NCBI GenBank assembly: GCA_965248995.1
Contig: CBDFKY010000006.1
Coordinates: forward strand, 101,729-165,728
Length of the DNA: 64,000 nucleotides
Source: Rickettsiales bacterium
Lineage (GTDB): Bacteria; Pseudomonadota; Alphaproteobacteria; Rickettsiales; UBA998
Reading direction: 5' to 3'
In this document: piece by piece, positions 36,456 to 52,908 of the stretch
Layout of the letters: the number at the start of each line of letters is the position of its first letter
Numbering within the stretch: position 1 is the stretch's first letter
Notes under the pieces: model-generated
Databases searched by the model: none
The model's input: the letters and a program-made list of their open reading frames with translations, nothing else
What the model was told of the DNA's origin: nothing
Program-made: the position numbers and the translations under genes

Positions 36456-37000
36456 ACCTGCTGGCTTTCGCGGCTTCGCACCGTGCGGATTCCATCAATC
36501 TTGCCCTGCTTGAGCAAGCGGCTTCGTATATCGGTGTCGCTCATCACGATATCGCGATGACACTGGAACCTTTTTCCTCGTTCGACCTGCCGCTCTACAA
36601 CGACGTGGACCGGTTGGAGAAGGGAATGTCCCCCGCCGCCGACCGTCTGCGCGACCTGTTCGCCGCCGCCGACGCGGTGGTGATCGCCAGCCCGGAATAT
36701 AACTGGTCGGTGCCGGCGCACCTGAAAAACCTGCTGGACTGGATGTCGTGCTACCGTCCCGTTCCCTTTGAAAACAAGCCGGTATTCCTGATGAGCGCCA
36801 GCCCTTCCGAGCGGGGCGGCGTGCTCGGCCTTTCCCACCTCAAAACCGTGCTGGAAGCGCTGGACGCCTTGCCGTATCCGTTCATGATGCTGCTCGGTCA
36901 CGCACCCGGCTCGCTGCAAGACGAGGCAAAAATCACGCAGTTGCACGCGCAGCTCGACGCATTCATCGGGTACGCGAAGCGCCTGGCCTCCCCGTTTTGA
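36452..37000 (+). CDS. NADPH-dependent FMN reductase family protein
   Basis: 182 aa. AASHRADSIN and VIASPEYNWSVPAHLKNLLDW motifs. Confidence 0.85.
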   Translation: MNLLAFAASHRADSINLALLEQAASYIGVAHHDIAMTLEPFSSFDLPLYNDVDRLEKGMSPAADRLRDLFAAADAVVIASPEYNWSVPAHLKNLLDWMSCYRPVPFENKPVFLMSASPSERGGVLGLSHLKTVLEALDALPYPFMMLLGHAPGSLQDEAKITQLHAQLDAFIGYAKRLASPF

Positions 37001-37872
37001 CAATGCGGCGTACTCTCGCTACAACCAGCGCAGTGCTTGATTACCTGCCCGTTTCCTTCGCTCCCGCTCCTTTTTCGCCCATCCATCTGGGAGGGTTTTC
37101 GGTCTGTGTCGCACAGACTCCCGAAGAAGTGATAGACGCGCAGCGGCTGCGTTATCATGTATTCGCGGAAGTGATGGGCGCTGAGCTGGCCGGTGGCGCG
37201 ACCAATGAGAAGCGTGATGCGGATGCGTACGACGCGGTATGCGACCATCTGCTGGTACGTTATCATGAAACGCCGGACGCGGCGCCTCGCATCGTCGGTA
37301 CGTATCGCCTGCTGCGGGGCTCGGAAATGCCGCGTATCGGACGCTATTATTCCGAGAGCGAATATGACGTCTCCTGTTTCAAGGCCTATCCCGGTAATAT
37401 ATTGGAGCTGGGCCGTTCCTGTACGCATCCGGAGTTCCGTCACAAAGTGGCGATGCAATTGTTATGGCGCGGTATCGGGGAATACGTGATGCATTACCGG
37501 ATCGCGCTGATGTTCGGCTGCGCCAGCTTTGCCGGCGTGGACCCGGAGGCGCATGCGGCGGCTTTGAGCTATCTGTATCATTTCCACCGGGCGCCGGAGG
37601 GCTTATGTCCGCGCACGCTAGCCGAGTTTTACGTGCCGATGGAACGGCTCGCAAAAGAGGCTATCGACCAGCGGCGCGTCTTCGCCTCGCTGCCGGTGCT
37701 GGTGAAAGGGTATCTGCGCCTCGGCGGGCTGGTGGGTGACGGGGCGTTTCTCGACCATGCGTTCAATACGACCGATATTTTGATGATGGTACGGACTGAG
37801 TCGATCGATGAGAAATACGTCAGCAAATACGCGCCGGACAGCGTGGTGGGTGGGGAAAGTAGTGCATCCTAA
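36997..37872 (+). CDS. olsB: GNAT-family acyltransferase, OlsB-like (ornithine-lipid N-acyltransferase)
   Basis: 291 aa. RLRYHVFAEVMGA..., IVGTYRLL, YYSESEYD and ELGRSCTHPEFR. TTG at 36997 or ATG at 37003. Confidence 0.8.
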   Translation: MTMRRTLATTSAVLDYLPVSFAPAPFSPIHLGGFSVCVAQTPEEVIDAQRLRYHVFAEVMGAELAGGATNEKRDADAYDAVCDHLLVRYHETPDAAPRIVGTYRLLRGSEMPRIGRYYSESEYDVSCFKAYPGNILELGRSCTHPEFRHKVAMQLLWRGIGEYVMHYRIALMFGCASFAGVDPEAHAAALSYLYHFHRAPEGLCPRTLAEFYVPMERLAKEAIDQRRVFASLPVLVKGYLRLGGLVGDGAFLDHAFNTTDILMMVRTESIDEKYVSKYAPDSVVGGESSAS

Positions 37873-38060
37873 TAAAAATAAATAAAAGGTAAACGGTCCT
37901 TGTTATTATTGTGTATGTGTGTTAAAAACGCGGAGTCAATCCGCATATTCTCTGTAAAATTACCGAGTATCCCTGCCTACTGACCTTCCCTCGGTGCATC
38001 TGATGGGAAGTTTCGATGATCGTCTATGACCTTTTTCCTTAAATTGGGAGTTTTTTTGCT

Positions 38061-39002
38061 ATGCTATTTTTAGCAATCGCAATCGGTTTGGTCATTTTCG
38101 CCGTATTCACCGTGATACTGGCGGAACGTGGCAAAGGACTGGTAGCGGCAGGTTTTACCATTACCCTGCTCGCCCTGGCATTAGTGTTTTCAGTCAGCTT
38201 CGTGCAGACCGGGAACGTGCAACTGTTACGGAGTTTCGGGGTCATCCAGACCCGCACGCTGACGGAAGGTATTCAATGGCATGCCCCTTGGCAGGTCACT
38301 GAAGACGTCAATATCCAGCGTCGCCAAGTCGATGTGGATTCCACTAAAGATGCAGCTGTCAAATCCTTGACACTTGATCAGGTGGACCTGGATGTGAGCG
38401 TCACGTTTCCCTACCGTCTAAACCCGACCTTCGCAGGTTTGTTATATGCCAAGGTAGGTGATCAGGACGGAATTTTTCAACTGCTTCAGCGGGCGGCTCA
38501 AAGTGCTTTGCGGGATACCTTGGCAACTCTACCTTGGGAAGATGCCGCTATCAACAAGAGAAGTCTTTTTGAGAGCGGTCTTGGAAATTCCATTTTAGCT
38601 ATCGTTTCCAATGACCTGCAACGTGCCGGTCTGACTGAAGCCGATGCCAAGGGCACCATCCTGTTTTTTACACTGATCATCGCGCAAGCCGCTCCTCCCG
38701 AGCGTCTGCGTCGTGAACTGGAAGAAAAACAGGCTGCTGAAATTGAGTTGGGTCGTCAACAGAAATTGACGGCGATCGCTGGGGAAGTCGCCAACCGGCG
38801 GGGCGCTGAAGGAGTCGGCATTGCTGCGCTTCTTAGCAAACTGCCTCATGAAGGTAGCGTATTTACGCCCAGTGAAATTGCTAACCTGATCAATGCCAAT
38901 GCTGCGGAAACGCGTGCACAGGCACTGCTTAAAGCGGTGGAAGCAGGACAACTGCGCTCTATCGTTTTCTCTGAACAGCCTGCAACCATTCCGGTTAAGT
39001 AG
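38061..39002 (+). CDS. SPFH/band-7 (prohibitin-like) membrane protein
   Basis: 313 aa. Two N-terminal TM helices, then VQTGNVQLLRSFGVIQTRTLTEGIQWHAPW... (SPFH core) and a coiled-coil tail. GC is lower than in the neighbouring genes. Confidence 0.8.
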   Translation: MLFLAIAIGLVIFAVFTVILAERGKGLVAAGFTITLLALALVFSVSFVQTGNVQLLRSFGVIQTRTLTEGIQWHAPWQVTEDVNIQRRQVDVDSTKDAAVKSLTLDQVDLDVSVTFPYRLNPTFAGLLYAKVGDQDGIFQLLQRAAQSALRDTLATLPWEDAAINKRSLFESGLGNSILAIVSNDLQRAGLTEADAKGTILFFTLIIAQAAPPERLRRELEEKQAAEIELGRQQKLTAIAGEVANRRGAEGVGIAALLSKLPHEGSVFTPSEIANLINANAAETRAQALLKAVEAGQLRSIVFSEQPATIPVK

Positions 39003-39029
39003 TTTGTTTCAGACGTAACGACGTATAGA

Positions 39030-39062
39030 AAGACCCGGGCCTCACGGTCAGGGTCTTTTTTT
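39030..39062 (+). terminator. rho-independent terminator of the SPFH gene
   Basis: Stem AGACCC/GGGTCT (39031-39036 / 39051-39056) followed by a T-run. Overlaps the dnaB stop. Confidence 0.6.
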
Positions 39063-40614
39063 ACCCGAACCGGTCCGGCAACCGTCCCGCGTCGGCCAGA
39101 TCCTCGAAGCGGGTCTGTTCCCCGTAGAACTGCAATGTCACCGTGCCGATCGCCCCGTGGCGCTGTTTGGCGACGATGACGTCCGCCTTGCCGTGCACCC
39201 GCTCCATGTCCTCCTGCCACTGCTGCATCTTGGGACTGGATTCGTCCGGCTTGGTGCGCGACAGGTAATATTCCTCGCGGTAGACGAACATCACCACGTC
39301 GGCGTCCTGCTCGATACTGCCGGATTCGCGCAGGTCCGAGAGTTGCGGGCGCTTGTCGTCGCGCGATTCCACCGCGCGCGATAGCTGGGAGAGGGCCACG
39401 ACGGGGATGCTCAGTTCCTTGGCCAGCGCTTTCAGCCCCTGCGTGATTTCGGAGACTTCCTGCACGCGGTTCATCTGTGAGGTGCGGGAAGCGGCGGTGA
39501 GCAGCTGCAGGTAATCCACCACCACCAGCCCAAGATTATGCATCCGCTTCAGGCGCCGCGCCCGGGTGCGTACCGCCGCGATGGAGAGGGCGGGCGTGTC
39601 GTCGACGAAGAACGGCAGGCCGGCAAGCTCGGCGTTGGCCCCCATCAGCCGCGAGAACTCATCGTTGTTCAGTTCGCCGCGCATGATGCCGGACGAGCTG
39701 ATATTGGCCCGTGCCGAGAGCACCCGGGTTGCGAGCTGTTCGGAAGACATCTCGAGAGAGAAGAACCCTACGGATTTTTGCGGCTGGTCGGGATTGGCGG
39801 CTTTTTCCTCCTGAAAGGCGAGCGCCGCCTTATACGCCATGGTCGTGGCCAGCGCGGTCTTTCCCATGGAAGGACGGCCCGCCAGGATGACCAGATCCGA
39901 ATCCTGAAACCCCCCGAGCAGACGGTTGAGATCGGCAAGGCCGGTCGTCACCCCTACCACCTCGCCCTTACGTTTATATGCTCGCTCGGCCTGCGCCACG
40001 GCGCTCGCTCCGAAGACGCGGAACGGCTGGAACTGTTTGCTGCCTTCGCCGTGCTCGGCGAGGTTGAACAGCATCTGTTCCGCTTCTTCCAGCCGGGTAC
40101 GTGCTGTGATGTGAAATTCCTGCGCGTAGGCGCCGTTGACCATTACCTGTCCCACTTCGATGATCTGGCGTTTCAGGTACAGGTCGTGCAGGATTTCGGA
40201 ATATTCGCGCACGTCGATGACGGTCGCGGCGGCGTAGGTCAGCTGGGCCAGGTATTCCGCGCCGATCTCTCCGGCCTCGCTATTGGAGAGGAAATAATGC
40301 TTCAACGTGACCGGGTTGGCGATGTTGCCCCGGTCGTGGAAATGCTGGATGGCGGTGTAGATGCGCGTATGGATCGGTTCGTGGAAATGCTCCGGCTTCA
40401 CCCGGTCGTCCAGATGATGCAGCACGGCGTTGTTGACCAGAATCGCCCCGAGCAGCGCCTGTTCCACGTCCAGGTTATGAGGGATCAGGCGCATTTCCAG
40501 AATCTTTTCGTCAGATTGCGGTTTGCCAGGCGTAAATACCGCGTCAAGTTCGTCGTCGGAGAGAGAAAGGGGTGCCATCGTCTCCAGTATAAGAGCGCGA
40601 GGATGCGGAAGCAA
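39061..40614 (-). CDS. dnaB: replicative DNA helicase DnaB
   Basis: 517 aa. PHNLDVEQALLGAIL N-terminal motif, Walker A AGRPSMGKTA, and LSQLSRAVESR. Confidence 0.96.
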   Translation of the reverse strand: MLPHPRALILETMAPLSLSDDELDAVFTPGKPQSDEKILEMRLIPHNLDVEQALLGAILVNNAVLHHLDDRVKPEHFHEPIHTRIYTAIQHFHDRGNIANPVTLKHYFLSNSEAGEIGAEYLAQLTYAAATVIDVREYSEILHDLYLKRQIIEVGQVMVNGAYAQEFHITARTRLEEAEQMLFNLAEHGEGSKQFQPFRVFGASAVAQAERAYKRKGEVVGVTTGLADLNRLLGGFQDSDLVILAGRPSMGKTALATTMAYKAALAFQEEKAANPDQPQKSVGFFSLEMSSEQLATRVLSARANISSSGIMRGELNNDEFSRLMGANAELAGLPFFVDDTPALSIAAVRTRARRLKRMHNLGLVVVDYLQLLTAASRTSQMNRVQEVSEITQGLKALAKELSIPVVALSQLSRAVESRDDKRPQLSDLRESGSIEQDADVVMFVYREEYYLSRTKPDESSPKMQQWQEDMERVHGKADVIVAKQRHGAIGTVTLQFYGEQTRFEDLADAGRLPDRFG

Positions 40615-40629
40615 GTCCGCTAACCGTGC

Positions 40630-40956
40630 CTAAAGCGAAAAGCCGGGTCTGGAAGGCGGGAGGAAATCTTTCTGCGAGACATGGAACTGTTTCATATGTT
40701 CCCATGCCTCCTCGGAGGGCGTGTTACCCTCACCCCGGTACAGCACTTCGCCGTATGCGGAAAGCTCCTGAACGGTGACTCCCCGCTCCCCGGTATTATC
40801 ATATTCCTTCGTCAATGCGGTAGCGTCCTGCAGCGCCGCGAACTGCGCATCGGTGCAGCGTAAGAAAAAATACTGCTGCTCACCCCATTCGTCCTGTGCA
40901 TTAATGATACGGATACGGGGAAGATGGCGATGATCAAGACGATTGACATGGTTCAT
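40630..40956 (-). CDS. hypothetical protein, third gene of a coupled three-gene operon
   Basis: 108 aa. The start overlaps the upstream stop (ATGA at 40953-40956). It ends 15 nt before the dnaB start. Confidence 0.6.
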   Translation of the reverse strand: MNHVNRLDHRHLPRIRIINAQDEWGEQQYFFLRCTDAQFAALQDATALTKEYDNTGERGVTVQELSAYGEVLYRGEGNTPSEEAWEHMKQFHVSQKDFLPPSRPGFSL

Positions 40957-41327
40957 TTGCGTCCTCCTCTCGACATACCTGCTCCTACGGGCTCTCTTGC
41001 ACGTGTCTGCTCGGCGACAGGAACGACGGAACTGATGACGACTTTATTGCGTTCTCTTTCTTTTTGCCGTTCCTGAACCATATCCATCACCGCGTCTCTC
41101 AAGGGATGCTTGTTTTCAATAATCGCTACCGATCCGGGATGCTTGAAATACTGATGGTCTTTTACAGGAGACCGATAGCTGGTTTTTTCCAAAGCATCCA
41201 GTACGTTTTTCACGGAAAACTCAGGTGATCCTTTCGGCATTTCCTTGTTGATTCTGTTAGTGAAAGGTTCCAGGGCTTTCACTAAGCTGCTAAGCGTCGC
41301 CACGTTCACCCGTTGTCCTTTTTCCAT
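40953..41327 (-). CDS. hypothetical protein, second gene of a coupled three-gene operon
   Basis: 124 aa. The start shares one base with the upstream stop (TGATG at 41325-41329). Basic C-terminal tail. Confidence 0.6.
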   Translation of the reverse strand: MEKGQRVNVATLSSLVKALEPFTNRINKEMPKGSPEFSVKNVLDALEKTSYRSPVKDHQYFKHPGSVAIIENKHPLRDAVMDMVQERQKERERNKVVISSVVPVAEQTRAREPVGAGMSRGGRK

Positions 41328-41848
41328 CAGGTCCAGTAATCGGGCGTATATTTACCGCTGCCATCATTACTGACGATGATACGAGTGCCTTGTTTGGGGG
41401 CATCGCGTTCATGCTCCAACATGGCGTATTCACCGTAGTTTTTATCAGCGCGTGCGTCTGCAACCGGACTATAGTGTAACTTTTCCGAATTTTTCCCCTG
41501 ATATTCAAGTGCGGCTTCATTGAAATCCATCCCCGATCTGGTTTTCGCCACCACCAGTCGATCGGTATTGAGAGGGTAATCTGCACCCGGCTCTATTCTT
41601 ATCGCATTATCGATCATCTCCTGAATGGGAGCGGAAACCCTGAATTTCGTTTGAAGGTTAGTAGGGCGGTACCCGTTCTCGGTTTTTAAACGGTTGCACA
41701 GTTCCACGTCCGCCACGAGATCCACCATCATAAGGGTGATGCCCGGCATCTTGGCGATGGCAGGGAGCAGGTCTTCATACCCGATTGCTTGCAGAGCGCT
41801 TACAATATTGGTATCTACGTTTAGAAAAGTGCGATTTTTAGTTGCCAT
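41327..41848 (-). CDS. hypothetical protein, first gene of a coupled three-gene operon (weak PIN-like N-terminal motif)
   Basis: 173 aa. FLNVDTNIVSAL resembles the first acidic motif of PIN domains. The spacing of later acidic residues is atypical. Confidence 0.6.
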   Translation of the reverse strand: MATKNRTFLNVDTNIVSALQAIGYEDLLPAIAKMPGITLMMVDLVADVELCNRLKTENGYRPTNLQTKFRVSAPIQEMIDNAIRIEPGADYPLNTDRLVVAKTRSGMDFNEAALEYQGKNSEKLHYSPVADARADKNYGEYAMLEHERDAPKQGTRIIVSNDGSGKYTPDYWT

Positions 41849-41926
41849 ACTCTTTTACAATAAAACATATAGTTTACATTTTTGTTACCTTACCTCTCAT
41901 TTATTTAAAATATTTTAATAAAAGTT

Positions 41927-43042
41927 ATGTCGCTCCGATTCACCCTCCACCATCTCCATGGCCGCGCACGCAGCGGCGTGCTGCATACCGCGCATGGGGA
42001 GATCCGCACGCCGGCGTTCATGCCTGTCGGCACCGCCGCTACGGTAAAGGGGCTCACTCCCGAAATGGTGGCGGAGACCGGAGCGGATATCCTGCTCGGT
42101 AATACTTATCATCTGATGCTGCGCCCCACCGCCGAGCGGGTGCATCGGCTGGGCGGGCTGCATCGTTTCATGCAATGGGAAAAACCCATCCTGACCGATT
42201 CGGGCGGCTTTCAGGTCATGTCTCTGGCGGCCATGCGCAGGATCACGGAAGAAGGGGTGGAGTTCAAATCCCATATCGACGGCAGCAAGCACATGCTCAC
42301 CCCGGAGCGGGCCACGGAGATCCAGTTCCTGCTGGACAGCGACATCACCATGGCGTTCGATGAATGCACGCCGTATCCCGCTACGCATGCGCAGGCGAAG
42401 CAGTCGATGGAGATGTCCATGCGCTGGGCGGCGCGCTGCCGGGAGGCGTTCGTCGAGCGGGAGGGGTACGGCCTGTTCGGCATCCAGCAGGGCGGCGTGT
42501 ATGAGGACCTGCGCCACGCTTCCGCTTCCGCCCTGCGCACGCTCGGTTTCGACGGCTACGCGATCGGCGGGCTGGCGGTCGGTGAGGGGCAGGAAGTGAT
42601 GTTCGGCGTTCTCGACCATGCGGCGCCCGCCTTGCCGGAAGACCGGCCGCGCTACCTGATGGGTGTCGGCAAGCCGACCGACATCGTCGGTGCGGTGGAG
42701 CGCGGCATCGATATGTTCGACTGCGTGATTCCCACCCGTTCGGGCCGTTTCGCCCGCGCCTATACGACGTACGGCGAGATCAATATCCGCAACGCCAAGT
42801 TCGCCGACGACGAGCGACCGCTGGATGCGGGGGTGCCGTGCCGCGCCTCGCAGTTCAGCCGCGCCTACCTGCATCATCTGTTCAAAGCCGGGGAGATGCT
42901 TGGCCCCATCCTGCTCAGCTGGCATAACGTCGCGTATTACCAGGCATTGATGCAGGAATTGCGTGACGGGATTGCGGGGGGTGCGCTGAATGACGTTGCC
43001 AAGCGCGTTCGGGCTGCGTATACTACGACTCCCTCTACTTAA
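41927..43042 (+). CDS. tgt: tRNA-guanine transglycosylase (queuine tRNA-ribosyltransferase)
   Basis: 371 aa. [26 protein letters not shown] and GLAVGE motifs. Confidence 0.95.
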
Positions 43043-43049
43043 TGATTTT

Positions 43050-43126
43050 CGGGGTGTAGCGCAGCCTGGTAGCGCGTCCGTCTGGGGGGCGGGAGGTCGT
43101 CGGTTCAAGTCCGGTCACCCCGACCA
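43050..43126 (+). tRNA. tRNA-Pro (anticodon GGG)
   Basis: 77-nt cloverleaf. Acceptor CGGGGTG/CACCCCG, D-arm GCGC-AGCCTGGTA-GCGC, anticodon loop CTGGGGG, T-loop TTCAAGT, encoded CCA. Confidence 0.9.
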
Positions 43127-43203
43127 TCCTACGCCCTGCGGGCTTCGGATGGTTCGCCGCCGCGATGGCGAAGCCATACGGAACCGCATCTTGGGCGTAG
43201 GAT
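43126..43203. repeat. long imperfect hairpin immediately 3' of tRNA-Pro
   Basis: Perfect 11-bp outer arms ATCCTACGCCC/GGGCGTAGGAT (43126-43136 / 43193-43203). Inner pairs TGCGG/CCGCA and GGCTTCG/CGAAGCC. Confidence 0.6.
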
Positions 43204-43239
43204 GCGCTACGAAGCCGGAGCGTAGCGGAGGAGGGCTTT

Positions 43240-43470
43240 GTGTATTACGTCTATCTTATAAAGAGCCTCAGCCACCCCGATCAAAAATACATCGGGATTA
43301 CAGAGGATTTGAAGAAACGCTATGTCGACCACAACAAGGGCTTCTCCAAACATACCGCAAAATATACGCCTTGGGAAATCGTGACCTATCACGCCTTCAA
43401 AGATAAATACAAAGCATATGAATTTGAAACTTATCTCAAAACAGGGGGATTATATACTTTGCAGGACTAA
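43240..43470 (+). CDS. GIY-YIG nuclease family protein, C-terminus replaced by IS insertion
   Basis: GTG start. YYVYLIKSLSHPDQKYIGITEDLKKRYVDHNKG...PWEIV is a GIY-YIG core. From 43445 the frame runs into the IS inverted repeat. Confidence 0.75.
   Translation: MYYVYLIKSLSHPDQKYIGITEDLKKRYVDHNKGFSKHTAKYTPWEIVTYHAFKDKYKAYEFETYLKTGGLYTLQD
43437..43444. repeat. 8-bp target-site duplication CAAAACAG (left)
   Basis: Identical to 45524-45531, directly outside the inverted repeats. Confidence 0.8.
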
Positions 43471-43479
43471 GCGCAACAT

Positions 43480-43656
43480 CTAGTTTTCGCTTGATTCCGT
43501 TTTTTCTTCTGGCAGGTCTTCTGGCTTAACCGTCATCAGCTTTTTCATTTTCTCATCGAATGCCTCCAGCGACTCATTGCACTCTAATTCACGGGCTGTT
43601 TCGATAAAACGTTGAGATTGCAAGGTATCAAGCGGAAACTTCTTCTTTGATGTCAT
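43480..43656 (-). CDS. small acidic hypothetical protein (IS passenger)
   Basis: 58 aa from the internal ATG (MTSKKKFPLDTLQSQRFIETARELE...). Start uncertain. Confidence 0.4.
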   Translation of the reverse strand: MTSKKKFPLDTLQSQRFIETARELECNESLEAFDEKMKKLMTVKPEDLPEEKTESSEN

Positions 43657-43936
43657 GGAGAACAGCCTCTTCATCCATTGTGATGCGGATGCTATGCAGA
43701 TACACTGTAGAATCATCGTAACTATAAAGAACGACAATATCTGGTAAATCCGCTAATCCCTTTTTCTTATAAAGATAAAAGTTACCATGTCCTTTAAATA
43801 ACGGATGGGCGAGCTTATCAGCAGAGCGGCTTAATAGCCATTTTAGCCCCTCCCAATCTTCGTCTAACCTATCAATTGAGGAATAAGAATCAATGGTATC
43901 GCTAACAGCTTTTTCTTCTACAATTTGTCTTAGCAT
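43628..43936 (-). CDS. RelE/ParE-fold-like putative toxin (IS passenger)
   Basis: About 102 aa from the ATG at 43936 (7-nt overlap with the upstream stop). The C-terminal pattern GNFYLYKKKG...DIVVLYSYDDSTVYLHSIRI resembles RelE/ParE beta-strands. Confidence 0.55.
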   Translation of the reverse strand: MLRQIVEEKAVSDTIDSYSSIDRLDEDWEGLKWLLSRSADKLAHPLFKGHGNFYLYKKKGLADLPDIVVLYSYDDSTVYLHSIRITMDEEAVLHDIKEEVSA

Positions 43937-44511
43937 GCCTTTGCTAGCTCCAACCCCAAATGATTTACCTGATTTTTTGCCCACGTCATGTCGTCACCAG
44001 ATAACTCGCCCTGCCTGCTTGCAAAAATTGCACATAATGGGATTTCCTCGCCTATTTCCGCCGCTTCCCATATTATATCGTGCGTATGCTCGCTAATTGA
44101 AGAAGCAGTATGGGAATGGCATATACTCTCCATTACATCATCAACCAAACTGATTTCATCGCTTGTGAAACCCGATATATTAGGAGAACGCAAAGATATA
44201 AAATGCGTTTGTGGGTAGCCGCCATAAATAGCGGTTCTCTCAAAAATCAGTCCACTTCTTTTCAGGGATTTTCTGACACTCATTATATCCTTAGGAACTG
44301 GACCAAATTGTCTTTTTTCATACTTTGCCCCACTGATAGATTGCCCTTTATAGAGATAACTTAGTGCATCGGAAAACCAAAGCACTTTATTCAGCTTGGT
44401 CGCTCCCAACTTTACAGGGTCGTCGCATTTAGAAACAATGTAGTGGGTTAGATTGTGAAACTTGTCCATTTTATTACCTTCATAGGCAGTTGAATGGTTT
44501 GATGAGTACAT
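43930..44511 (-). CDS. Panacea/DUF4065 (SocA-like) antitoxin-domain protein (IS passenger)
   Basis: GATKLNKVLWFSDALSYLYKGQSISGAKYEKRQFGPVPKD matches the DUF4065 core as I recall it. Start at 44511, or alternatively 44469. Confidence 0.7.
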   Translation of the reverse strand: MYSSNHSTAYEGNKMDKFHNLTHYIVSKCDDPVKLGATKLNKVLWFSDALSYLYKGQSISGAKYEKRQFGPVPKDIMSVRKSLKRSGLIFERTAIYGGYPQTHFISLRSPNISGFTSDEISLVDDVMESICHSHTASSISEHTHDIIWEAAEIGEEIPLCAIFASRQGELSGDDMTWAKNQVNHLGLELAKAC

Positions 44512-44536
44512 GACAATTCTCCACTTTGCTAGCAAA

Positions 44537-45457
44537 TCAGCAATTATGTGTTTTATATACTAATCTTTTTCCTAAAATTCCAATTAGCATCTCACGCGAA
44601 CGCTCACTATCAGTAAGGTGTCTCTCATTATAGCGGAAGTCAAACTCTGCAAGGTAGCGTTTCAGGTGACGACTGTTGCAATGCTGATAGATTCCCTTCA
44701 TGCCACGTTTGAAAACGCTGAAATATCCCTCAATGGTGTTTGTATGTGCATCACCGCGCACATACTCACCAATTCCATGATTGACGCTATGGTGTTCCGC
44801 AAAGGCTTTGCCAAGAGGTTTGTATTGACGTGCTTCATCCGTCATGAGGATGCTGTCAGTATGCAGTTGCTCCATAAGAATAGGGCGCAGGTTTTCAGCG
44901 GTGACATGTGTTACATGCTGGCTGCGGACTTTCCCGCCGCGCTCCACAAGGGAAAACACGATTTCCTTATTTGCTCCACCTTGGGAATGTGGAATATGCT
45001 TGTTCTTATGCTTATTCTTCTCCAATCCACCAAAGTACGTCTCATCCGCTTCAACAGTTTTGCCCTCACCACCCATAGGCTCAATGTTCAATACACGCAT
45101 TGCCTCACGCAAGCGGTGAGTCATGAACCATGCCGTCTTATAGGTTACGCCTAGCGTGCGGTGCAACTGGTGGGAACTGATGCCCTTTTTACTGGAAGCC
45201 ATAAGGTATGCAGCTTGTAGCCATAAATGCAGCTTCACATGAGAGGATTCAAACACCGTACCGACTTTGACGGTGAACTTTTTATTGCAGTCAGAGCATT
45301 TACGAAGTCCAGGACGGTCGCCCTTGCCGTTCAGCGCATACATTTTACCAAGGCTCCCACAATGAGGGCAGGAAACGCCATTAGCCCATACGATGCTTTC
45401 TAAGTACGCGATGGCGACAGTTTCATCATGAAAACGGGGAGCGGACAAAATAGACAT
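44537..45457 (-). CDS. IS1595 family transposase (ISXO2-like)
   Basis: 306 aa. N-terminal zinc ribbon CPHCGS...CSDCNKKFTVKVGTVFESSHV, an HTH (ISSHQLHRTLGVTYKTAWFMTHRLR), and a DDE core with VEADETYFGG. Confidence 0.92.
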   Translation of the reverse strand: MSILSAPRFHDETVAIAYLESIVWANGVSCPHCGSLGKMYALNGKGDRPGLRKCSDCNKKFTVKVGTVFESSHVKLHLWLQAAYLMASSKKGISSHQLHRTLGVTYKTAWFMTHRLREAMRVLNIEPMGGEGKTVEADETYFGGLEKNKHKNKHIPHSQGGANKEIVFSLVERGGKVRSQHVTHVTAENLRPILMEQLHTDSILMTDEARQYKPLGKAFAEHHSVNHGIGEYVRGDAHTNTIEGYFSVFKRGMKGIYQHCNSRHLKRYLAEFDFRYNERHLTDSERSREMLIGILGKRLVYKTHNC

Positions 45458-45523
45458 AACAACATTCCTTGGTTATAAGGAAATACTATATTATGTGGCT
45501 TGTCCCGTCAAGTATATAATCCC

Positions 45524-45531
45524 CCAAAACA
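45524..45531. repeat. 8-bp target-site duplication CAAAACAG (right)
   Basis: Identical to 43437-43444. Confidence 0.8.
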
Positions 45532-45569
45532 GGGTCCGGAAAAGCGTTTGCCAGCAAACGTTTTTGGTA
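45532..45569 (+). pseudogene. displaced 3' end of the GIY-YIG gene
   Basis: Joined to 43444 it reads ...YLKTGSGKAFASKRFW*, a typical GIY-YIG small-protein C-terminus. Confidence 0.75.
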
Positions 45570-45590
45570 ACAAAAAAATCTAGTATCACT

Positions 45591-46259
45591 TTACGCGATA
45601 AATCCTTGCGTCCGCTTGAAATATGCGTAATCTGGTGACAGGGACTTCACCGGCGTCGCGGGAACACCCGAATACAGCATATGCGTATCACCGTACGCTT
45701 TCTGCAACGTGGAACCCGCTCCCAGCGCAGAATAATCCGGCAGTACGGCGCCTTTGAGCAGGATGCTTCCCGCCCCCACCATGCAGTAATTGCCGATGGT
45801 GATCGGAGCGCTTTCCTGGCGGTTGAGCTCCATGTTGACGCTGTGGCTGAAAAAGCAGGTGCGCATGCCGGCGATAATTGTAAACGCGCCGATGGTGACC
45901 GTGTTGCAGCAATCCACGTAATGCCGCCCTGTCAGGCTGCTGTGGCGGCCGATGATCAGCGCCGGGATGCGGGCCGGTTCGCCCGCGAAATGGACGCGGG
46001 AATGCGAGGGAATGGCGCTGATGACGTTGAAAGGCCCGATATTCGCGCCTTCGCTCATCTCCAACCGGTCGAGCTGCTTGATGATCGTGAAATTGCCGAT
46101 GCGCGCCCCTTGTGCCATGCCGACTTTCCGGCACATGACCAGCGAGAAGCCGATTCGTGCGCCGGGCGCGATCTCGTACCCGAACAGGCGGTGATAGGCG
46201 ATGCGTTTCAACGGCATCGGCAGGAACATCACTATAATATGAATGATTTTTCTGAACAT
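45591..46259 (-). CDS. hexapeptide-repeat (LbH) acyl/acetyltransferase
   Basis: 222 aa. Repeated [LIV]G-x4 hexapeptides (IGNFTII, IGPFNVI, IGAFTII, IGNYCMVGAGSILLKG). WcaF-like. Confidence 0.8.
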   Translation of the reverse strand: MFRKIIHIIVMFLPMPLKRIAYHRLFGYEIAPGARIGFSLVMCRKVGMAQGARIGNFTIIKQLDRLEMSEGANIGPFNVISAIPSHSRVHFAGEPARIPALIIGRHSSLTGRHYVDCCNTVTIGAFTIIAGMRTCFFSHSVNMELNRQESAPITIGNYCMVGAGSILLKGAVLPDYSALGAGSTLQKAYGDTHMLYSGVPATPVKSLSPDYAYFKRTQGFIA

Positions 46260-46350
46260 CCCCTATTCATAGCAAATGAAGCGTTAAAAATAAAGTACTG
46301 TCATGAAAGCATCATACCACTTTCTACATTCCTATGGTATAATTTAGTAT

Positions 46351-47403
46351 ATGGGAGAAAACTTGGTCGATAGTGCGGGTGTCTCGACTATGCGCATTCC
46401 GCATCGTCTTAAACCTTTGCGACAAAAACTAGCAGAGGGGGAAAAAGAAGAGCGTCGAATCAATTTTGTCAGTTCCACCCGCATCGATACGGCGGACGGT
46501 CCGGTGTATCATGTCGACATTAAAGAGGTGCCCGGCACCGAGAAAGTCACCTGGATCGAGAAGGCGACGCAGCGTGATTTCGCGATCGGCGTGAGTCTCG
46601 GCGGCGTTGCCGTACTGGCGATGATGACGTTGACCGGCGGCGCGGCCCTGCCGATCGCCCCCTCCCTGCTGCCGTTCATCGGCGCGGTGATCGGCGGCAT
46701 CAGCGACTTCCGCCGCAATGACAAGGAATTGAAGGAAGGGGTGGATATCGGCCCGCCCAAGCGTTTCAACCGCGATCTCATTAAAAGCGCGCTCGGTTAC
46801 GGGTTCATGGCGAAACTGCTGCTGATCGGCGTCAGCGTGGCGATCGCGGCCAGCGGCCTGCCGATTCCGGGCGCGGCGGGTCTGGTCCATGCCTGGGCGG
46901 CGGGCGGCGGGTTGCTGACGCAGATCGGCCACGTGGCGGAAATGCTGCCGAGCGTGATCGGCTGGGGTGCGTTCGCCATCGGCGCCAGCTGCGGCGCGGT
47001 GAAAGGTTCGGAAATCGGCTATGCGCGGATGCAGCGGGAATATCTGGCGGCGAAAACCAAGAACGAACGGCCCGAGCTCGGCGTATCCGTCACGCCGGAA
47101 CAGTCGCTTGGCGTGCCCGAACTGGTGGCGAACGTCGTCGCTCCCACGATACTGCCGGTCGGGCTGGCAGGAGACCTGGTGGCGGCGACCCAGTCGGCGG
47201 TCGATCAGCGCGCCACCGCCAATGAACGCAAAGCATGGCATCCGAAAGACGACCAGAAGCTGGGTTTCACCTTTACCAACGCGGTGACGTCGCACCAGGC
47301 GGGAGAACGCCTGCGGTTCGACGGTTCCTCTTCCCTCGCCGAACAGATCGGCAAACAGCGGGAAACGGCGGCTGTGCAAGGCATAGCTCAGATTGGCGGC
47401 TGA
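46351..47403 (+). CDS. hypothetical membrane protein with glycine-zipper-like helices
   Basis: 350 aa. Several Gly/Ala-rich hydrophobic segments (GVSLGGVAVLAMMTLTGGAALPIAP..., IGASCGAVKGSEIG). The long antisense ORF is Arg-rich and rejected. Confidence 0.6.
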   Translation: MGENLVDSAGVSTMRIPHRLKPLRQKLAEGEKEERRINFVSSTRIDTADGPVYHVDIKEVPGTEKVTWIEKATQRDFAIGVSLGGVAVLAMMTLTGGAALPIAPSLLPFIGAVIGGISDFRRNDKELKEGVDIGPPKRFNRDLIKSALGYGFMAKLLLIGVSVAIAASGLPIPGAAGLVHAWAAGGGLLTQIGHVAEMLPSVIGWGAFAIGASCGAVKGSEIGYARMQREYLAAKTKNERPELGVSVTPEQSLGVPELVANVVAPTILPVGLAGDLVAATQSAVDQRATANERKAWHPKDDQKLGFTFTNAVTSHQAGERLRFDGSSSLAEQIGKQRETAAVQGIAQIGG

Positions 47404-47622
47404 CGCTTTCCTGCCTTTATGACAGATCCGTGAAGGATCCGGGACAAAAACATGACAGGTATATGTCAATCACATGAAGATTAATATTCAATTAATAAAA
47501 CGGCTTTTTTATTATGCTGTTTTGTAGTAAGGTAACAATACAAGCAAATGATTTATGAAATACATGGATCATTTTATTAACAAATAACCTTTATACTACT
47601 TACACAATTTAGGAGAATTAAA

Positions 47623-50067
47623 ATGGCTGATTCAGACCAACCTGCACAAGTAACCAAAGATTTCCCTCTTGAAGTTCAGGGCGACCTTCTTCCCGGCATG
47701 CAAGGCAACCCTGCTGGAGCTTCTACCGGACCTGACGGAGTTACTGTAACACCTACGAAAATTCCAAATTTAACGCCGGACCAAATCCACAACTGGACTG
47801 TACCAGACGCATCTTTTGTTCTTATTGACGCTAAAACGAACAAGCCAATTATTGGGGCTGACGGTCAGGTACAAATGTTAACGGGTGCTACGGTCAATGG
47901 TAATGTTCCGGAACTATTTGAACAGCTTAAAGCGAATCCTGACCAAAAAACCTATACCTTACCAGATGGTAGAATCGTTCCTTTATATACTTCTAAGGAT
48001 CTTCCCCATACTACCACATTAGTGAATGGGGTTCCAACAGAAGTCATTTTGTCGGCAACCCCGGAGACCATCAGCAGAACGCCTGGAACTCAAAATGGTG
48101 ATCGTTTAACTGAAAAGAATCCTGATGGTAGCTATAAATCAGACCCCTATGAAAACGGACAGTTAAATGGGGTTAAAGTATTATCTGCGGCTACCAGTAT
48201 TACGCTTAAAGATGGAACAAAAGTCCCTGTTACGATTGAGCATCAATTAGATACCACAGGAATTCCCGGAAAAGGCCAGCTTAGTGATGTAGAAAATGGA
48301 AGCGGAGCCATTCAATCGGACATTGACAAAACAACTGTCAAATCGGCGACTGTTAACATTCCCACAACCGCGATAACGCCTTTTAAGGATGTCAATCCCA
48401 ATGCATTCCGTGATGGCAAAATCACATTTGACGATCCCAAGTCGCATATAGAAAAAGGGCAGTCCACCACTGAAATCGAAAGACAACGTTTTGTTGAACA
48501 GACAAAAGCTAAACCTGGTGATATCGTCAATTTCGGTCCTTTCGTACCTAATACCGTACAACTTACGGGAGAAGGGTTGAAAATCAAACCTGCCATAGGT
48601 GTTCAAAGTGGTGGAGCGGATCAAGCTATTTTGGCAGGAGACACCACCCTTGGTTATTCCGTTCCCCTAGGAAAAGCGGATGCTTACAATAAAGGCAGTG
48701 GCGTAGGCACTTTCTTCGTGGATGGTAGCGTAAACCTTGAAAACATTGCCCATCCTAAACTTGGCGCTCCAAAAGCGGGGGTAACAGCAGGGGTAAGATT
48801 AAGTACACCGCTGTTAGAGCCTGATGACAAAGGCGTGATGAGAACAACAAAACATGCTGAGTATATACAAGCGAGTGTTGGAGCCAGTCTGGTTCCAGAC
48901 ACCCAAAATGTGGACGTTCTCGCCATTACGCCTGTTACCAAAACGCCTATCAACCAGGTAACCGATACAGCTCATAAGGAACAGGCAGGAAAAGTACTGG
49001 GTACGGAAACGGTTAGTGGCAACAATGTTCAAAACGGAACAACTCCTCAAACTACGACTGCAACTACAAGGGAAACGGGTACCTCCGTTAGCTATAACGG
49101 GGCTGAAGTAGGCCGCGATACCCATGTGGCAACGACTGTGGCAGTGACAAATGGCACACCTAACTTAGGTTCTGTTGAAAGACACGTAGATAAAGTGGAT
49201 TTCGCACCAAATGGGCAATTCGTTGCGGTGGGTGATGCCAAGACTCTCTCTACCGACAGGACCAGCAAGCAGATCGGTACCCAAGTTGAGCGAGGTGAAA
49301 CCACCGTTGAAAGAGGGGATCCAAATTTGTCTACAGGGATTGTTATCACACCAGATCTACGCATAGGGTCAACCAACTTGCACCATGCACTGGATACAGG
49401 AGGACTCTATTACGATGTCAATGCAGGTGTTCAAGCAAACATTATGACGAACGGTATGGGGGCGACTCCTTTTGCAAGAGCGGGAGGTGATCTTGGATTT
49501 GCTGCTGACAATAGCACGTGGTCATTGAATGTCGAAGACCGCCAAAATCTTGAAAACGGCAAAAACGATTTTAGAGCAGGTCTTAAGTTTCAGGTCCATA
49601 ACAACGGCAAACCACTTTCTCCCGAAGAGCACGCAAAGCTTGTGGCCAACCAAGCCGCATTGGGAATCGGTAAACCGTTGACGCCGGAAACCGCTACGGC
49701 ATTGTCACAGGAAAGTGTGGCGAATGCGCCGAAAGTGGCAAAAGAGCACCAAGACAATGTCGCAACTATTACGAAGATCGGTGTTGAACCAGTGCTTAAA
49801 GTCTTGAATGGCATTGCGGAAAGTGATTCAGGAGGACGAGACTTCGCAAGTGCGGTCAAAAAGCTTCAGGAGACTAACACACTAACTCCGGAAGCACTCG
49901 CCAAAGAGGCTGAATTACATCTTGGAGGCAAGCTGACGCAGGCAGTGAAAGAAGCAAACGCTAAAGAACAAGCAAAAGCGGCAGTTCCTCTTTCTCCGAC
50001 GTTGGCACCTGCATCCAGTACCAATAAAAGTGTGCCTCAAGAAACAGGTGTGGGTGCACAACGTTAA
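47623..50067 (+). CDS. large Thr/Gly/Asn-rich hypothetical protein (AT-rich islet), no signal peptide
   Basis: 814 aa, no Cys, beta-rich composition, Lys/Ala-rich helical tail. AT-rich with a long AT-rich upstream region. Confidence 0.65.
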   Translation: MADSDQPAQVTKDFPLEVQGDLLPGMQGNPAGASTGPDGVTVTPTKIPNLTPDQIHNWTVPDASFVLIDAKTNKPIIGADGQVQMLTGATVNGNVPELFEQLKANPDQKTYTLPDGRIVPLYTSKDLPHTTTLVNGVPTEVILSATPETISRTPGTQNGDRLTEKNPDGSYKSDPYENGQLNGVKVLSAATSITLKDGTKVPVTIEHQLDTTGIPGKGQLSDVENGSGAIQSDIDKTTVKSATVNIPTTAITPFKDVNPNAFRDGKITFDDPKSHIEKGQSTTEIERQRFVEQTKAKPGDIVNFGPFVPNTVQLTGEGLKIKPAIGVQSGGADQAILAGDTTLGYSVPLGKADAYNKGSGVGTFFVDGSVNLENIAHPKLGAPKAGVTAGVRLSTPLLEPDDKGVMRTTKHAEYIQASVGASLVPDTQNVDVLAITPVTKTPINQVTDTAHKEQAGKVLGTETVSGNNVQNGTTPQTTTATTRETGTSVSYNGAEVGRDTHVATTVAVTNGTPNLGSVERHVDKVDFAPNGQFVAVGDAKTLSTDRTSKQIGTQVERGETTVERGDPNLSTGIVITPDLRIGSTNLHHALDTGGLYYDVNAGVQANIMTNGMGATPFARAGGDLGFAADNSTWSLNVEDRQNLENGKNDFRAGLKFQVHNNGKPLSPEEHAKLVANQAALGIGKPLTPETATALSQESVANAPKVAKEHQDNVATITKIGVEPVLKVLNGIAESDSGGRDFASAVKKLQETNTLTPEALAKEAELHLGGKLTQAVKEANAKEQAKAAVPLSPTLAPASSTNKSVPQETGVGAQR

Positions 50068-50195
50068 ATCTGGGGCAATGCTATTTAACTCTCCACCACC
50101 GTCACGGGTTCGCCTGTGGCGGTGGTGGTATGTTTGGGGGATGGGTTGTGGTGCCGCTTGCGTTTTGGGCAGGCGGGCGCTAAGTTCTGCCTCCT

Positions 50196-51530
50196 ATGGT
50201 ACAGTCAGAATTTTTGCGCCGCATGGAGATGCGCGGCTATATGCATCAGGCCACCCATCTGGAGGCGCTGGATGCGCTGATGGGTGCTGGCGAAGCAGTC
50301 CCTGCCTATATAGGGTTCGACTGCACCGCTCCCAGCCTGCATGTCGGCAGCCTGATGCAGATCATGATTTTGCGTCACCTGCAACAATGCGGCCACAAAC
50401 CGATCGTGCTGCTGGGTGGGTTCACCACCAAAATCGGTGATCCTTCGGGGAAGGATGCTTCGCGCAACGCACTGGATGACGCCACCATCGCGAAGAACAA
50501 GGCGGGCATCCGGCAGGTGTTTGAAAACTTTCTCACCTTCGGCGATGGGCCGGCGGATGCCGTGATGGTCGATAACGACGACTGGCTGGGACAGATGAAC
50601 GTGAGTACGTTTTTGCGAGATATAGGGCGGTATTTCTCTGTTAACCGCATGGTTAAGATGGATAGTGTCAAGCTGCGTCTGGAGCGCGAAAGCAATCTCA
50701 GTTTCCTGGAATTCAGCTATATGCTGATGCAGTCCTACGACTTTGTGGAATTGAACAGGCGTTATGGCTGCCGCCTGCAGATCGGCGGGTCGGACCAATG
50801 GGGCAATATCGTGATGGGTATCGAGCTGCATCAAAAGACAGGGGTGCAAATTTCCAGTCTGGACATGAAAGATGCCATGCGTATCAGTGGCGAATTTCTG
50901 GATGATCCAAGCCGTTCCTCTCCAAAGGAATGGAGTGCTTCTTCGCCGGTATTCGGCCTTACCACACCACTCCTCACCACCGCATCCGGTGCGAAAATGG
51001 GTAAAACGGCGGACGGCGCGGTATGGCTGAATGCCGATATGCTCTCACCCTATGACTACTGGCAGTTCTGGCGCAACTGCGATGACGGGGATGTCGGGCG
51101 ATTCCTGAAACTGTTTACGGAACTGTCGCTGGAAGAAATCGCCGAACTGGAAAAAGGCGCGAATATCAACGATGCCAAGAAAGTGCTGGCGACGGAAACC
51201 ACCGCTCTGCTGCATGGGCGCGAGGCCGCCGGGCAGGCGGCGGAGACAGCCCGGCGCACGTTTGAGGAAGGGGGGAGCGATGCCAACCTGCCGACCATAA
51301 GCCTGTCTTTGGCTGACGTGGGGGATACTTTGCCTGCTTTCAAACTGTTCCAGTTAAGCAGCCTTGCCACCTCCGCGTCCGAAGCAAAGCGCTTGATTCA
51401 GGGAGGGGGGGCACGGTTGGATGATGAGAAAATCACGGATGAAAACATGGCGCTGGTGCTGTCAGCCGGAACGACCTTCAAACTCGCTGCCGGGAAAAAG
51501 AAGTATCTGCTGGTAAAGATCGAAGCCTGA
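50196..51530 (+). CDS. tyrS: tyrosine--tRNA ligase
   Basis: 444 aa. [14 protein letters not shown] (HIGH-type), KMGKT (KMSKS-type) and a C-terminal S4-like domain. Carries an extra ~30-aa segment before the KMGKT loop. Confidence 0.93.
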
Positions 51531-52907: not shown

Positions 52908-52908
52908 G

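What the first reader, a model, noticed from the sequence alone, without database searches (positions are those of the whole stretch)
40630..41848. Translationally coupled three-gene orphan operon directly upstream (15 bp) of dnaB
Three minus-strand ORFs of 173, 124 and 108 aa are chained. The first stop and second start share one base (TGATG at 41325-41329). The second and third overlap by ATGA (40953-40956). The last stop is only 15 nt from the dnaB start, so read-through into dnaB is plausible. The three genes look AT-richer than dnaB and tgt on either side. An AT-rich divergent promoter region (41849-41926) separates them from tgt. I recognise no family for any of them. The only hint is FLNVDTNIVSAL at the start of the 173-aa protein, which resembles the first acidic motif of PIN-like nucleases. 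Later candidate acidic residues (DVE ~49, TDRL ~96, SNDG ~160) are spaced atypically. A compact, coupled, horizontally acquired three-gene module of unknown function is a good candidate for an undescribed defence/toxin-antitoxin-type system, or for a helicase-associated accessory module.
Basis: partly seen in the sequence, partly recalled or inferred. Interest (0 to 1): 0.7.

Follow-up and report, generated by a model that had tools for sequence, protein, structure and literature searches.

The report
Rare split nuclease-like gene plus partner
The "three-gene operon" is really a very rare two-gene cassette, a roughly 300-residue protein with a probable PIN-like nuclease domain (split here by a one-base frameshift) plus a small coupled partner protein, and it has no general link to the dnaB gene beside it.

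Summary
The three minus-strand ORFs exist at the stated coordinates with the stated overlaps, are lower in GC than their neighbours, and are real coding sequence (dN/dS 0.09-0.13 against the one close relative). "Three genes" is wrong. In the close relative and in two distant homologues, the 173-aa and 124-aa ORFs form one continuous protein of 297-573 aa. The window lacks one base at 41335/41336, inside a conserved core. The unit is therefore one large gene plus a ~108-aa partner whose start overlaps the large gene's stop in three of four loci. The family is extremely rare: four loci among about 15 billion proteins, with no match in Pfam, NCBIfam, PADLOC, phages or plasmids. The invariant acidic residues D12, D43, E140 and D162 fall where PIN-like nucleases carry their catalytic residues. 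Formal tests are only suggestive (hhalign P about 0.009; Foldseek VapC E 0.26). dnaB adjacency holds only in the two close relatives, and the gap to the conserved dnaB start is 51 nt, not 15. My best reading is a PIN-like nuclease with a cognate small partner, toxin-antitoxin-like. Function is unproven. Interest is moderate to low.

The parts
41327..41848 (-). The 173-aa ORF, which is the N-terminal piece of the large gene. It carries predicted strands S1-S4 and all four candidate catalytic residues (D12, D43, E140, D162) of a probable PIN-like domain.
   Evidence: ORF coordinates. It is 80% identical to residues 1-171 of the 297-aa P0002. Invariant residues come and AF2 secondary structure. 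dN/dS is 0.09.
41335..41336 (-). Frameshift site. One base is missing relative to L001 (window GATTAC-TGGACC, L001 GATTACTTGGATC). This creates the TGA stop at 41329-41327 that overlaps the ATG at 41327-41325.
   Evidence: DNA alignment. The ORF124 frame is open for only 27 nt upstream of its ATG. Protein continuity across this point, PDY-x6-G-x2-VNVA with identical spacing, is seen in P0002, P0005 and P0006.
40953..41327 (-). The 124-aa ORF, which is the C-terminal piece of the large gene. It carries the conserved VNVA strand (predicted S5 of the N-terminal domain), a helical domain and a basic tail. There is no good Shine-Dalgarno sequence before its ATG.
   Evidence: AF2 pLDDT is 73-89 for P0002 residues 181-220. 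dN/dS is 0.13. pI is 10.0.
40630..40956 (-). The small acidic partner gene (108 aa, predicted beta-beta-alpha-beta-alpha). Its ATG overlaps the large gene's stop (ATGA) and is preceded by GGAGG.
   Evidence: Homologue P0004 lies in L001 with a TGATG overlap. A 106-aa gene overlaps the stop of P0006 in L014 and aligns over its full length at 27% identity.
41859..41889 (-). A 31-nt block in the tgt/module intergenic region that is nearly identical in L001 (1 mismatch) although synonymous sites are saturated. It probably holds the divergent promoters for the module and for tgt.
   Evidence: Alignments. A promoter-like site on the + strand at 41882-41911 overlaps it.
40579..40629 (-). The 51-nt spacer between the partner gene's stop codon and the conserved dnaB start (ATG 40578). 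It contains no terminator-like site.

Best explanation
The locus is a two-gene cassette, not three genes.

Gene 1 ancestrally encodes one protein of about 300 aa (297 aa in the close relative; 467 and 573 aa in distant ones). Its N-terminal ~185 residues most likely form a PIN-like, metal-dependent nuclease domain. A helical, basic C-terminal region follows.

In this genome a one-base deletion at 41335/41336 cuts gene 1 between predicted strands S4 and S5. The result is a 173-aa ORF and a 124-aa ORF joined by TGATG. If the deletion is real, the second piece can only be made by termination-reinitiation. The protein would then be either reassembled from two chains or inactivated.

Gene 2 encodes a ~108-aa acidic protein whose start overlaps the stop of gene 1. 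Translational coupling would tie its synthesis to that of gene 1.

I infer that the pair works as a nuclease and its cognate binding partner (inhibitor, antitoxin or specificity subunit), that is, a toxin-antitoxin-like selfish or stress module. It was acquired horizontally and has since been kept vertically between tgt and dnaB in this alphaproteobacterial lineage.

Shown: gene structure, the frameshift, conservation of the pair, rarity, purifying selection, and the lack of a general dnaB link.

Inferred: the PIN-like fold, nuclease activity and the partner's role.
For: One gene, not two:
- P0002 (297 aa) equals ORF173 plus ORF124.
- The exhaustive HMMER search finds only P0005 and P0006 beyond the window's own protein, and both are continuous across the junction with identical spacing.
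- A single extra T in L001 accounts for the difference. The one substitution beside it is synonymous in the fused frame.
- ORF124's frame is open only 27 nt upstream of its ATG, which has no good SD.

Real genes:
- dN/dS is 0.09-0.13 at dS above 1.

Conserved pair:
- A small gene overlaps the large gene's stop in the window, L001 and L014.
- The small proteins align over their full length, with BLASTP E 3e-4 and hhalign P 0.027.

PIN-like domain:
- The defining pattern is acidic residues after S1, after S2, at the N-terminus of H4 and after S4, in a five-stranded alpha/beta/alpha fold (PMC5499597).
- The family's invariant D12, D43, E140 and D162 sit exactly after or at AF2-predicted E7-11, E37-40, H140-149 and E155-159. 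A fifth strand lies at 182-184.
- hhalign against a 9-sequence VapC profile gives a colinear 118-column alignment. It pairs D12 with D7 and S-N-D162 with T-N-N, at P 0.0086. None of 200 column shuffles and 3 of 335 natural ORFs reach that score.
- Shigella VapC has the highest target-normalised TM-score (0.44) among the top 50 PDB hits listed.

Foreign origin, then stable inheritance:
- The module's GC is 2-6 points below its surroundings in all four loci.
- An integrase fragment lies beside the L014 copy.
- The locus is colinear between the window and L001.
Against: - No database profile detects a PIN or any other domain.
- Foldseek gives no significant hit for either model. Best results are E 0.013 to a non-PIN protein and E 0.26 to VapC.
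- The AF2 models are mediocre (pLDDT 60 and 66) and rest on 5- and 2-sequence alignments.
- hhalign probability is only 4.7%, and a single VapC sequence gave nothing.
- The L015 copy (P0005) has no recognisable small partner. That is awkward for an obligatory toxin-antitoxin pair.
- The partner has no recognisable DNA-binding fold and lies downstream, unlike VapB.
- The large protein is 2-4 times the size of VapC toxins.
- L001 is a low-coverage assembly with a broken tgt, so its fused state could in principle be an error.
Confidence: 0.45

Rival explanations
1. The frameshift is an assembly or sequencing error in the window's genome. In the cell, gene 1 is intact at about 297 aa and the cassette is simply the same two genes as in L001.
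For: Both halves remain under strong purifying selection, and no other lesion is seen. The fused frame is ancestral. The break lies inside a conserved core rather than in a linker. ORF124 lacks its own SD.
Against: The site, ATTAC|TGG, is not a homopolymer run. The same 173-aa and 124-aa products are on record from the NCBI/ENA copy of this contig. No other broken gene was seen in the 17 kb that can be compared with L001. dN/dS over a long divergence cannot detect a recent real frameshift.
Confidence: 0.3
2. A genuine tri-cistronic operon. The 173-aa and 124-aa proteins are natively separate and translationally coupled in this lineage, and the fused 297-aa ORF in L001 is the artefact.
For: L001 comes from a contig labelled 2x. 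Its tgt carries three indels relative to the window. TGATG is preserved in both genomes.
Against: The distant homologues are single proteins. An insertion would have to fall by chance inside a 27-nt zone. Roughly 8.5 kb of other L001 coding sequence, including the 297-aa, 112-aa and dnaB genes, has no frameshift. The neighbouring substitution is synonymous only in the fused frame.
Confidence: 0.1
3. Gene 1 is not a nuclease. The family is an orphan protein of some other function (for example a secreted effector or a structural or regulatory protein), and the acidic motifs resemble PIN by coincidence.
For: Every formal fold and family test is non-significant. P0005 and P0006 are very acidic (pI 4.7) and carry an extra C-terminal domain. 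P0005 lacks the partner. The neighbours are housekeeping genes.
Against: Eleven invariant acidic residues are concentrated in the N-terminal domain, and four lie at the canonical PIN positions on the predicted secondary structure. The colinear hhalign match has P about 0.009.
Confidence: 0.3
4. A helicase-associated or replication module. The proteins would act with DnaB, for example as a loader or organiser, and be co-transcribed with it.
For: The module lies 51 nt upstream of dnaB with no terminator-like site. The same order occurs in L001. There are noise-level PHROG matches to a replisome organiser (E 0.07; 0.011 for the domain alone) and to a helicase loader (E 0.14).
Against: The PHROG matches hit different segments and only one family member each. 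The window's own ORF124 does not match. L001 has 480 bp and a possible opposite-strand ORF between the module and dnaB. L014 and L015 have no dnaB nearby. A genome whose DnaB is 70% identical lacks the module.
Confidence: 0.05
5. Programmed -1 ribosomal frameshifting produces the full-length protein from the split gene in the window.
For: The ORF124 frame is -1 relative to ORF173, and the two overlap in a 27-nt zone. The region around the junction is highly conserved at the nucleotide level.
Against: The zone contains no X XXY YYZ slippery heptamer. The close relative encodes the protein in a single frame.
Confidence: 0.03

Closest known systems
VapC-type PIN-domain toxins of VapBC type II toxin-antitoxin systems (e.g. 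Shigella VapC/MvpT, PDB 3TND)
   Same: The N-terminal hhhD[TA]N motif matches. The hhh[ST]-x-D motif after the fourth strand is followed by an aromatic residue and a last strand. Acidic residues lie at the four canonical positions. The gene is tightly coupled to a small partner and has a patchy, foreign-looking distribution.
   Different: The protein is 300-570 aa rather than about 130 aa. It has about 85 residues of insertion between H2/H3 and H4, plus an extra helical domain. The partner lies downstream, not upstream, and has no recognisable DNA-binding fold. No Pfam PIN model detects the protein. One of the four loci lacks the partner.
Other PIN domain-like superfamily groups (NYN/Zc3h12a-like, PIN_4/PhoH-associated), as classified in PMC5499597
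   Same: These are larger multidomain proteins with a PIN-like core, and the hhh-S-N-D motif recalls NYN-type motifs. That resemblance is from my own knowledge and was not tested here.
   Different: I made no profile or structural comparison to these groups. The predicted helical insert after S2 fits the VapC/FEN type better than NYN, which lacks that insert.
Toxin-first type II toxin-antitoxin operons (e.g. higBA, hicAB, mqsRA)
   Same: The larger gene is followed by a small gene with a 1-4 nt overlap, and a conserved block lies upstream at the promoter.
   Different: There is no homology to any of them. Toxicity, neutralisation and autoregulation are untested.

Membership tests
PIN domain-like superfamily | Rossmannoid alpha/beta/alpha sandwich with five parallel strands S1-S5 and helices H1-H5 (PMC5499597) | tested here: inconclusive
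   The AF2 model (pLDDT 60.5, pTM 0.63) gives a beta-alpha-alpha-beta-alpha...beta-alpha-beta order compatible with the fold. Foldseek gives no significant hit. VapC 5ecd_A has E 0.26 and TM 0.44 normalised to the target.
PIN domain-like superfamily | Conserved acidic residues downstream of S1, at the N-terminus of H4 and downstream of S4, with a fourth usually downstream of S2 | tested here: met
   D12 (after E7-11), D43 (after E37-40), E140 (start of H140-149) and D162 (after E155-159) are invariant in all four family members. This rests on predicted secondary structure, not on a solved one.
PIN domain-like superfamily | Detectable by sequence-profile or profile-profile methods | tested here: inconclusive
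   Pfam gives nothing even at E up to 10. hhalign against a single VapC sequence gives probability 0.4%. Against a 9-sequence VapC profile it gives P 0.0086 and probability 4.7%. None of 200 shuffles and 3 of 335 natural ORFs reach that score.
PIN domain-like superfamily | Metal-dependent nuclease activity | not testable with these tools
   This needs biochemistry.
VapBC type II toxin-antitoxin system | Small upstream antitoxin with a DNA-binding domain (AbrB, RHH, HTH or PHD type) that neutralises a PIN toxin of about 130 aa | tested here: not met
   The gene upstream is tgt, on the opposite strand. The small gene lies downstream, has no family hit, and is predicted as beta-beta-alpha-beta-alpha with no PDB match. 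The large protein is 297-573 aa.
Toxin-antitoxin module (generic) | Conserved co-occurrence of two tightly linked genes | tested here: inconclusive
   The pair with overlapping stop and start is present in 3 of 4 loci. It is absent at P0005 in L015/L016.
Toxin-antitoxin module (generic) | Toxicity of one product, neutralised by the other | not testable with these tools
   This needs expression experiments.
Known anti-phage defence systems | Match to a known defence protein model, or location in a defence island | tested here: not met
   PADLOC gives no hit for any family member. Neighbours at all four loci are housekeeping genes. No copy is found on phages or plasmids.
Helicase loader / replication organiser module | Conserved association with a replicative helicase gene and homology to loader or organiser families | tested here: not met
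   dnaB adjacency occurs only in the window and its close relative. The only PHROG matches are at noise level and inconsistent.

The most novel reading that the evidence does not exclude
The pair defines a previously undescribed family: a large PIN-like nuclease with a helical C-terminal domain, plus a dedicated acidic partner of novel fold. It would be exchanged between distant Proteobacteria and kept under selection even in a genome whose neighbouring genes are decaying. That would make it a new type of nuclease-inhibitor (toxin-antitoxin or defence) module. The window's version could be a naturally split enzyme whose last beta-strand is supplied in trans.
Probability: 0.25. Interest if true: 0.55.

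Novelty: new variant of a known kind. Interest (0 to 1): 0.35.

Why it matters
If the PIN-like reading is right, this adds a new and very rare branch to a large nuclease superfamily, with an unusual architecture (large toxin-like protein first, novel small partner second). It is also a reminder that apparent translationally coupled orphan genes can be one frameshifted gene. In practical terms, it corrects the annotation of this locus from three hypothetical proteins to one disrupted gene plus one partner. It also removes the suggested functional link to dnaB. With only four known loci and no experimental handle, the wider impact is limited.

Tried and rejected
- Family scans of all three ORFs and their homologues against Pfam, PHROGs, NCBIfam and PADLOC gave nothing usable.
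- Weak PHROG hits to a replisome organiser and a helicase loader were followed up. They were rejected as noise because each hits one member only, on different segments.
- PDB sequence searches with the family profiles gave nothing.
- Foldseek of the large-protein model against PDB and BFVD, and of the small-protein model against PDB, gave no significant match.
- A test of whether ORF108 corresponds to the extra C-terminal domain of P0005/P0006 was negative.
- Searches for more loci in viral contigs, metagenome contigs, phage records and plasmid records found none.
- A genome scan with DnaB, looking for an empty site, showed that the nearest genome (DnaB 70% identical) has different synteny and no module.
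- A 17-nt near-repeat between the 3' end of ORF108 (40647-40663) and tRNA-Pro (43080-43096) was considered as a possible att site. I rejected it. By my own estimate about one such match is expected by chance in the 4.4 kb searched, the corresponding L001 sequence is not conserved, and tgt lies between the copies.
- Programmed frameshifting was rejected because there is no slippery site and the relative is in a single frame.
- Attempts to identify the source organisms failed.

Full report
**What is in the sequence**

Three minus-strand ORFs lie at 41848-41327 (173 aa), 41327-40953 (124 aa) and 40956-40630 (108 aa). The overlaps are as described: TGATG at 41329-41325 and ATGA at 40956-40953.

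The module has GC 0.50. The window as a whole is 0.554, and sliding-window values in dnaB and tgt are about 0.60-0.68. tgt (41927-43042, +) and dnaB (-) flank the module.

The dnaB ORF can be extended to a TTG at 40614. However, the start conserved in the relative is ATG 40578 (GGAGAcgATG; MAPLSLSDDEL against MAILSLSDDEL). The gap to the last ORF is therefore 51 nt, not 15. No terminator-like site lies in that gap.

**Homologues**

None of the three proteins matches Pfam, PHROGs, NCBIfam or PADLOC.

The word-indexed search of 5.8 billion clusters finds one relative each for ORF173 and ORF108 besides the window's own sequences. Both relatives are on one ENA contig, L001.

The relative of ORF173 is a 297-aa protein, P0002. 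Its C-terminal part is ORF124.

An exhaustive HMMER pass over 1.84 billion representatives, using P0002 as query, adds only two more proteins. P0005 (467 aa) and P0006 (573 aa) score E 2e-17 and 2e-13.

Nothing related is found in viral or metagenome contigs, or by tblastn in phage or plasmid records. The family is thus known from four loci in about 15 billion proteins.

**Three genes or two**

In P0002, P0005 and P0006 the sequence runs without interruption across the point where the window has its stop and restart. It reads PDY, six residues, then G-x-x-VN[VI]A-x-L, with identical spacing in all three.

At the DNA level the window reads GATTAC-TGGACCTGATGG and L001 reads GATTACTTGGATCTGATGG. 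The difference is one base, plus one substitution that is synonymous only in the fused frame.

In the window, ORF124's frame is open for only 27 nt upstream of its ATG. That ATG has no good Shine-Dalgarno sequence, whereas ORF108 has GGAGG.

L001 comes from a low-coverage contig, and its tgt carries three indels relative to the window. An error in L001 therefore cannot be excluded. Against this, its other genes, about 8.5 kb of coding sequence, are unbroken. The two distant homologues also independently show the fused state.

I conclude that the ancestral unit is one gene and that the window lacks a base between 41336 and 41335. Whether that is a real mutation or an assembly error cannot be decided here. 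The separate 173-aa and 124-aa products are what the public record of this contig carries.

There is no slippery heptamer in the 27-nt zone, so programmed frameshifting is unlikely.

**Are they real genes**

| Gene (window against L001) | dN/dS | dS |
|---|---|---|
| ORF173 | 0.09 | 1.3 |
| ORF124 | 0.13 | 1.1 |
| dnaB | 0.06 | 1.0 |

ORF108 has dN 0.18 with saturated dS. All frames have been maintained by selection across a deep divergence. This says nothing about a recent frameshift.

**The partner gene**

The small gene follows the large one with a 1-4 nt overlap in the window, in L001 and in L014, where a 106-aa gene overlaps the stop of P0006.

The three small proteins align end to end at 27% identity for the distant one. 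They share a GEG-x-P-x-x-E-x-WE motif and a KD...G-x-S tail. Pairwise BLASTP gives E 3e-4 and hhalign gives P 0.027. Given the equivalent position and size, homology is probable.

P0005 in L015/L016 has no such partner. An unrelated acidic 76-aa ORF lies 92 nt downstream.

**Genomic context**

The window (36904-53658) and L001 are colinear.
- The window has two extra segments: a 2.5-kb low-GC island after tRNA-Pro and an SPFH gene after dnaB.
- L001 has 480 extra bp between the partner gene and dnaB.

The module is part of the shared backbone, so it predates the split of these two lineages.

The nearest other genome in the species collection (DnaB 70% identical) has different neighbours and no module. 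L014 and L015 place the large gene among unrelated housekeeping genes with no dnaB. L014 has a tyrosine-integrase C-terminal fragment just upstream.

The module's GC is 2-6 points below its surroundings at all four loci. This fits old horizontal acquisition. It does not fit a helicase-linked function or a defence island.

**What the large protein may be**

AF2 on the 5-sequence alignment gives a mediocre model (pLDDT 60.5, pTM 0.63). Its N-terminal domain has alternating strands and helices.

The four family members share eleven invariant acidic residues in this domain.

- a five-stranded parallel alpha/beta/alpha fold;
- near-invariant acidic residues downstream of S1, at the N-terminus of H4 and downstream of S4;
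- a fourth acidic residue, usually downstream of S2.

The invariant residues fall at exactly these places:

| Residue | Motif | Position on the AF2 model |
|---|---|---|
| D12 | LN[VIL]D[TA]N | after E7-11 |
| D43 | - | after E37-40 |
| E140 | - | first residue of H140-149 |
| D162 | hhh[ST]ND | after E155-159 |

A fifth strand, VNVA at 182-184, follows after an aromatic residue and a loop, as in VapC (LIIVTNNTREF...GLRTEDW).

Formal tests are weaker:
- Pfam sees nothing at E up to 10.
- hhalign against one VapC sequence, which I first verified against PDB 3TND, gives nothing.
- hhalign against a profile of nine VapCs harvested from plasmids gives a colinear 118-column alignment with score 22.3, P 0.0086 and probability 4.7%. 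It pairs D12 with D7 and S-N-D162 with T-N-N.
- None of 200 column-shuffled profiles reaches that score. Three of 335 natural ORFs do.
- Foldseek finds no significant PDB or viral match. Shigella VapC appears at rank 37 (E 0.26). Its target-normalised TM-score of 0.44 is the highest among the top 50 hits listed.

I put the PIN-like assignment at roughly 60%.

If it is correct, the window's frameshift separates S1-S4 and all four acidic residues (ORF173) from S5 and the helical, basic C-terminal region (ORF124, pI 10).

**What the small protein may be**

AF2 (two sequences; pLDDT 66, pTM 0.57) predicts a beta-beta-alpha-beta-alpha protein. It has no significant PDB match and no family hit. It is acidic, with pI 4.8-5.5 in all three copies.

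**Mechanism proposed**

The large protein is a PIN-like metal-dependent nuclease. Its synthesis is coupled to that of a small acidic partner, which binds it as an inhibitor, antitoxin or subunit. Transcription starts from a promoter in the 78-nt tgt/module spacer. That spacer holds a 31-nt block (41859-41889) that is nearly identical in L001 despite saturated synonymous divergence.

The locus anatomy is shown. Nuclease activity and the partner's role are inferred. The absence of a partner at P0005 and the failure of all significance thresholds are the main weaknesses.

**Verdict**

- It is not a three-gene system and is not tied to dnaB. There is no evidence for defence.
- It is a very rare, unannotated two-gene cassette and probably a new family in the PIN-like superfamily. 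One gene is frameshifted in this genome.
- Interest is moderate to low (0.35).

Noticed in passing
window 43050-45636: tRNA-Pro(GGG) at 43050-43126 is followed by a low-GC island of about 2.5 kb (GC about 0.39-0.44) that is absent from the syntenic L001 locus. The island holds a GIY-YIG protein (43240-43470), two small overlapping ORFs (43480-43737 and 43628-43984), a SocA/Panacea antitoxin-domain protein (43930-44535) and an IS1595-family transposase (44537-45457). It looks like a tRNA-associated insertion carrying a possible Panacea-type toxin-antitoxin pair.
   Followed up: partly
window 37857-39061: An SPFH/Band-7 gene (38061-39002, GC about 0.52) sits between dnaB and a GNAT-type acyltransferase. 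It is missing from the otherwise colinear L001 locus, so it is a second lineage-specific insertion.
   Followed up: partly
L001 8803-9922 and about 4100-6900: In the relative, tgt is broken by three indels. The counterpart of the window's 814-aa ORF (47623-50067) has no called gene and only patchy similarity. This points either to local gene decay in that organism or to uneven assembly quality. The 297-aa and 112-aa module genes are intact there.
   Followed up: partly
L001 11233-11711: About 480 bp lie between the partner gene and dnaB in L001 and are absent from the window. They include a 97-aa opposite-strand ORF with a hydrophobic, signal-peptide-like N-terminal region and no Pfam match.
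   Followed up: no
L014 9566-9769: A 67-aa ORF just upstream of the P0006 copy reads like the C-terminal end of a tyrosine integrase (HDLRRTF...). That reading comes from my own knowledge of the motif. It hints that the cassette arrived there on a mobile element.
   Followed up: no
P0005 residues about 350-440; P0006 residues about 435-525 (L015 11051-11299; L014 11306-11719): The two long homologues share an extra C-terminal domain of about 90 aa (tblastn E 9e-7). It is absent from the window and L001 proteins and is unrelated to ORF108.
   Followed up: partly
window 41900-41923: An AT-only palindrome (TTTATTTAAAATAT / ATATTTTAATAAAA) lies in the tgt/module intergenic region, next to the conserved 31-nt block. 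It may be a regulatory site for the divergent promoters.
   Followed up: no
window 47623-50067: An 814-aa ORF has no sequence match to any PDB chain. It is another uncharacterised large protein.
   Followed up: no
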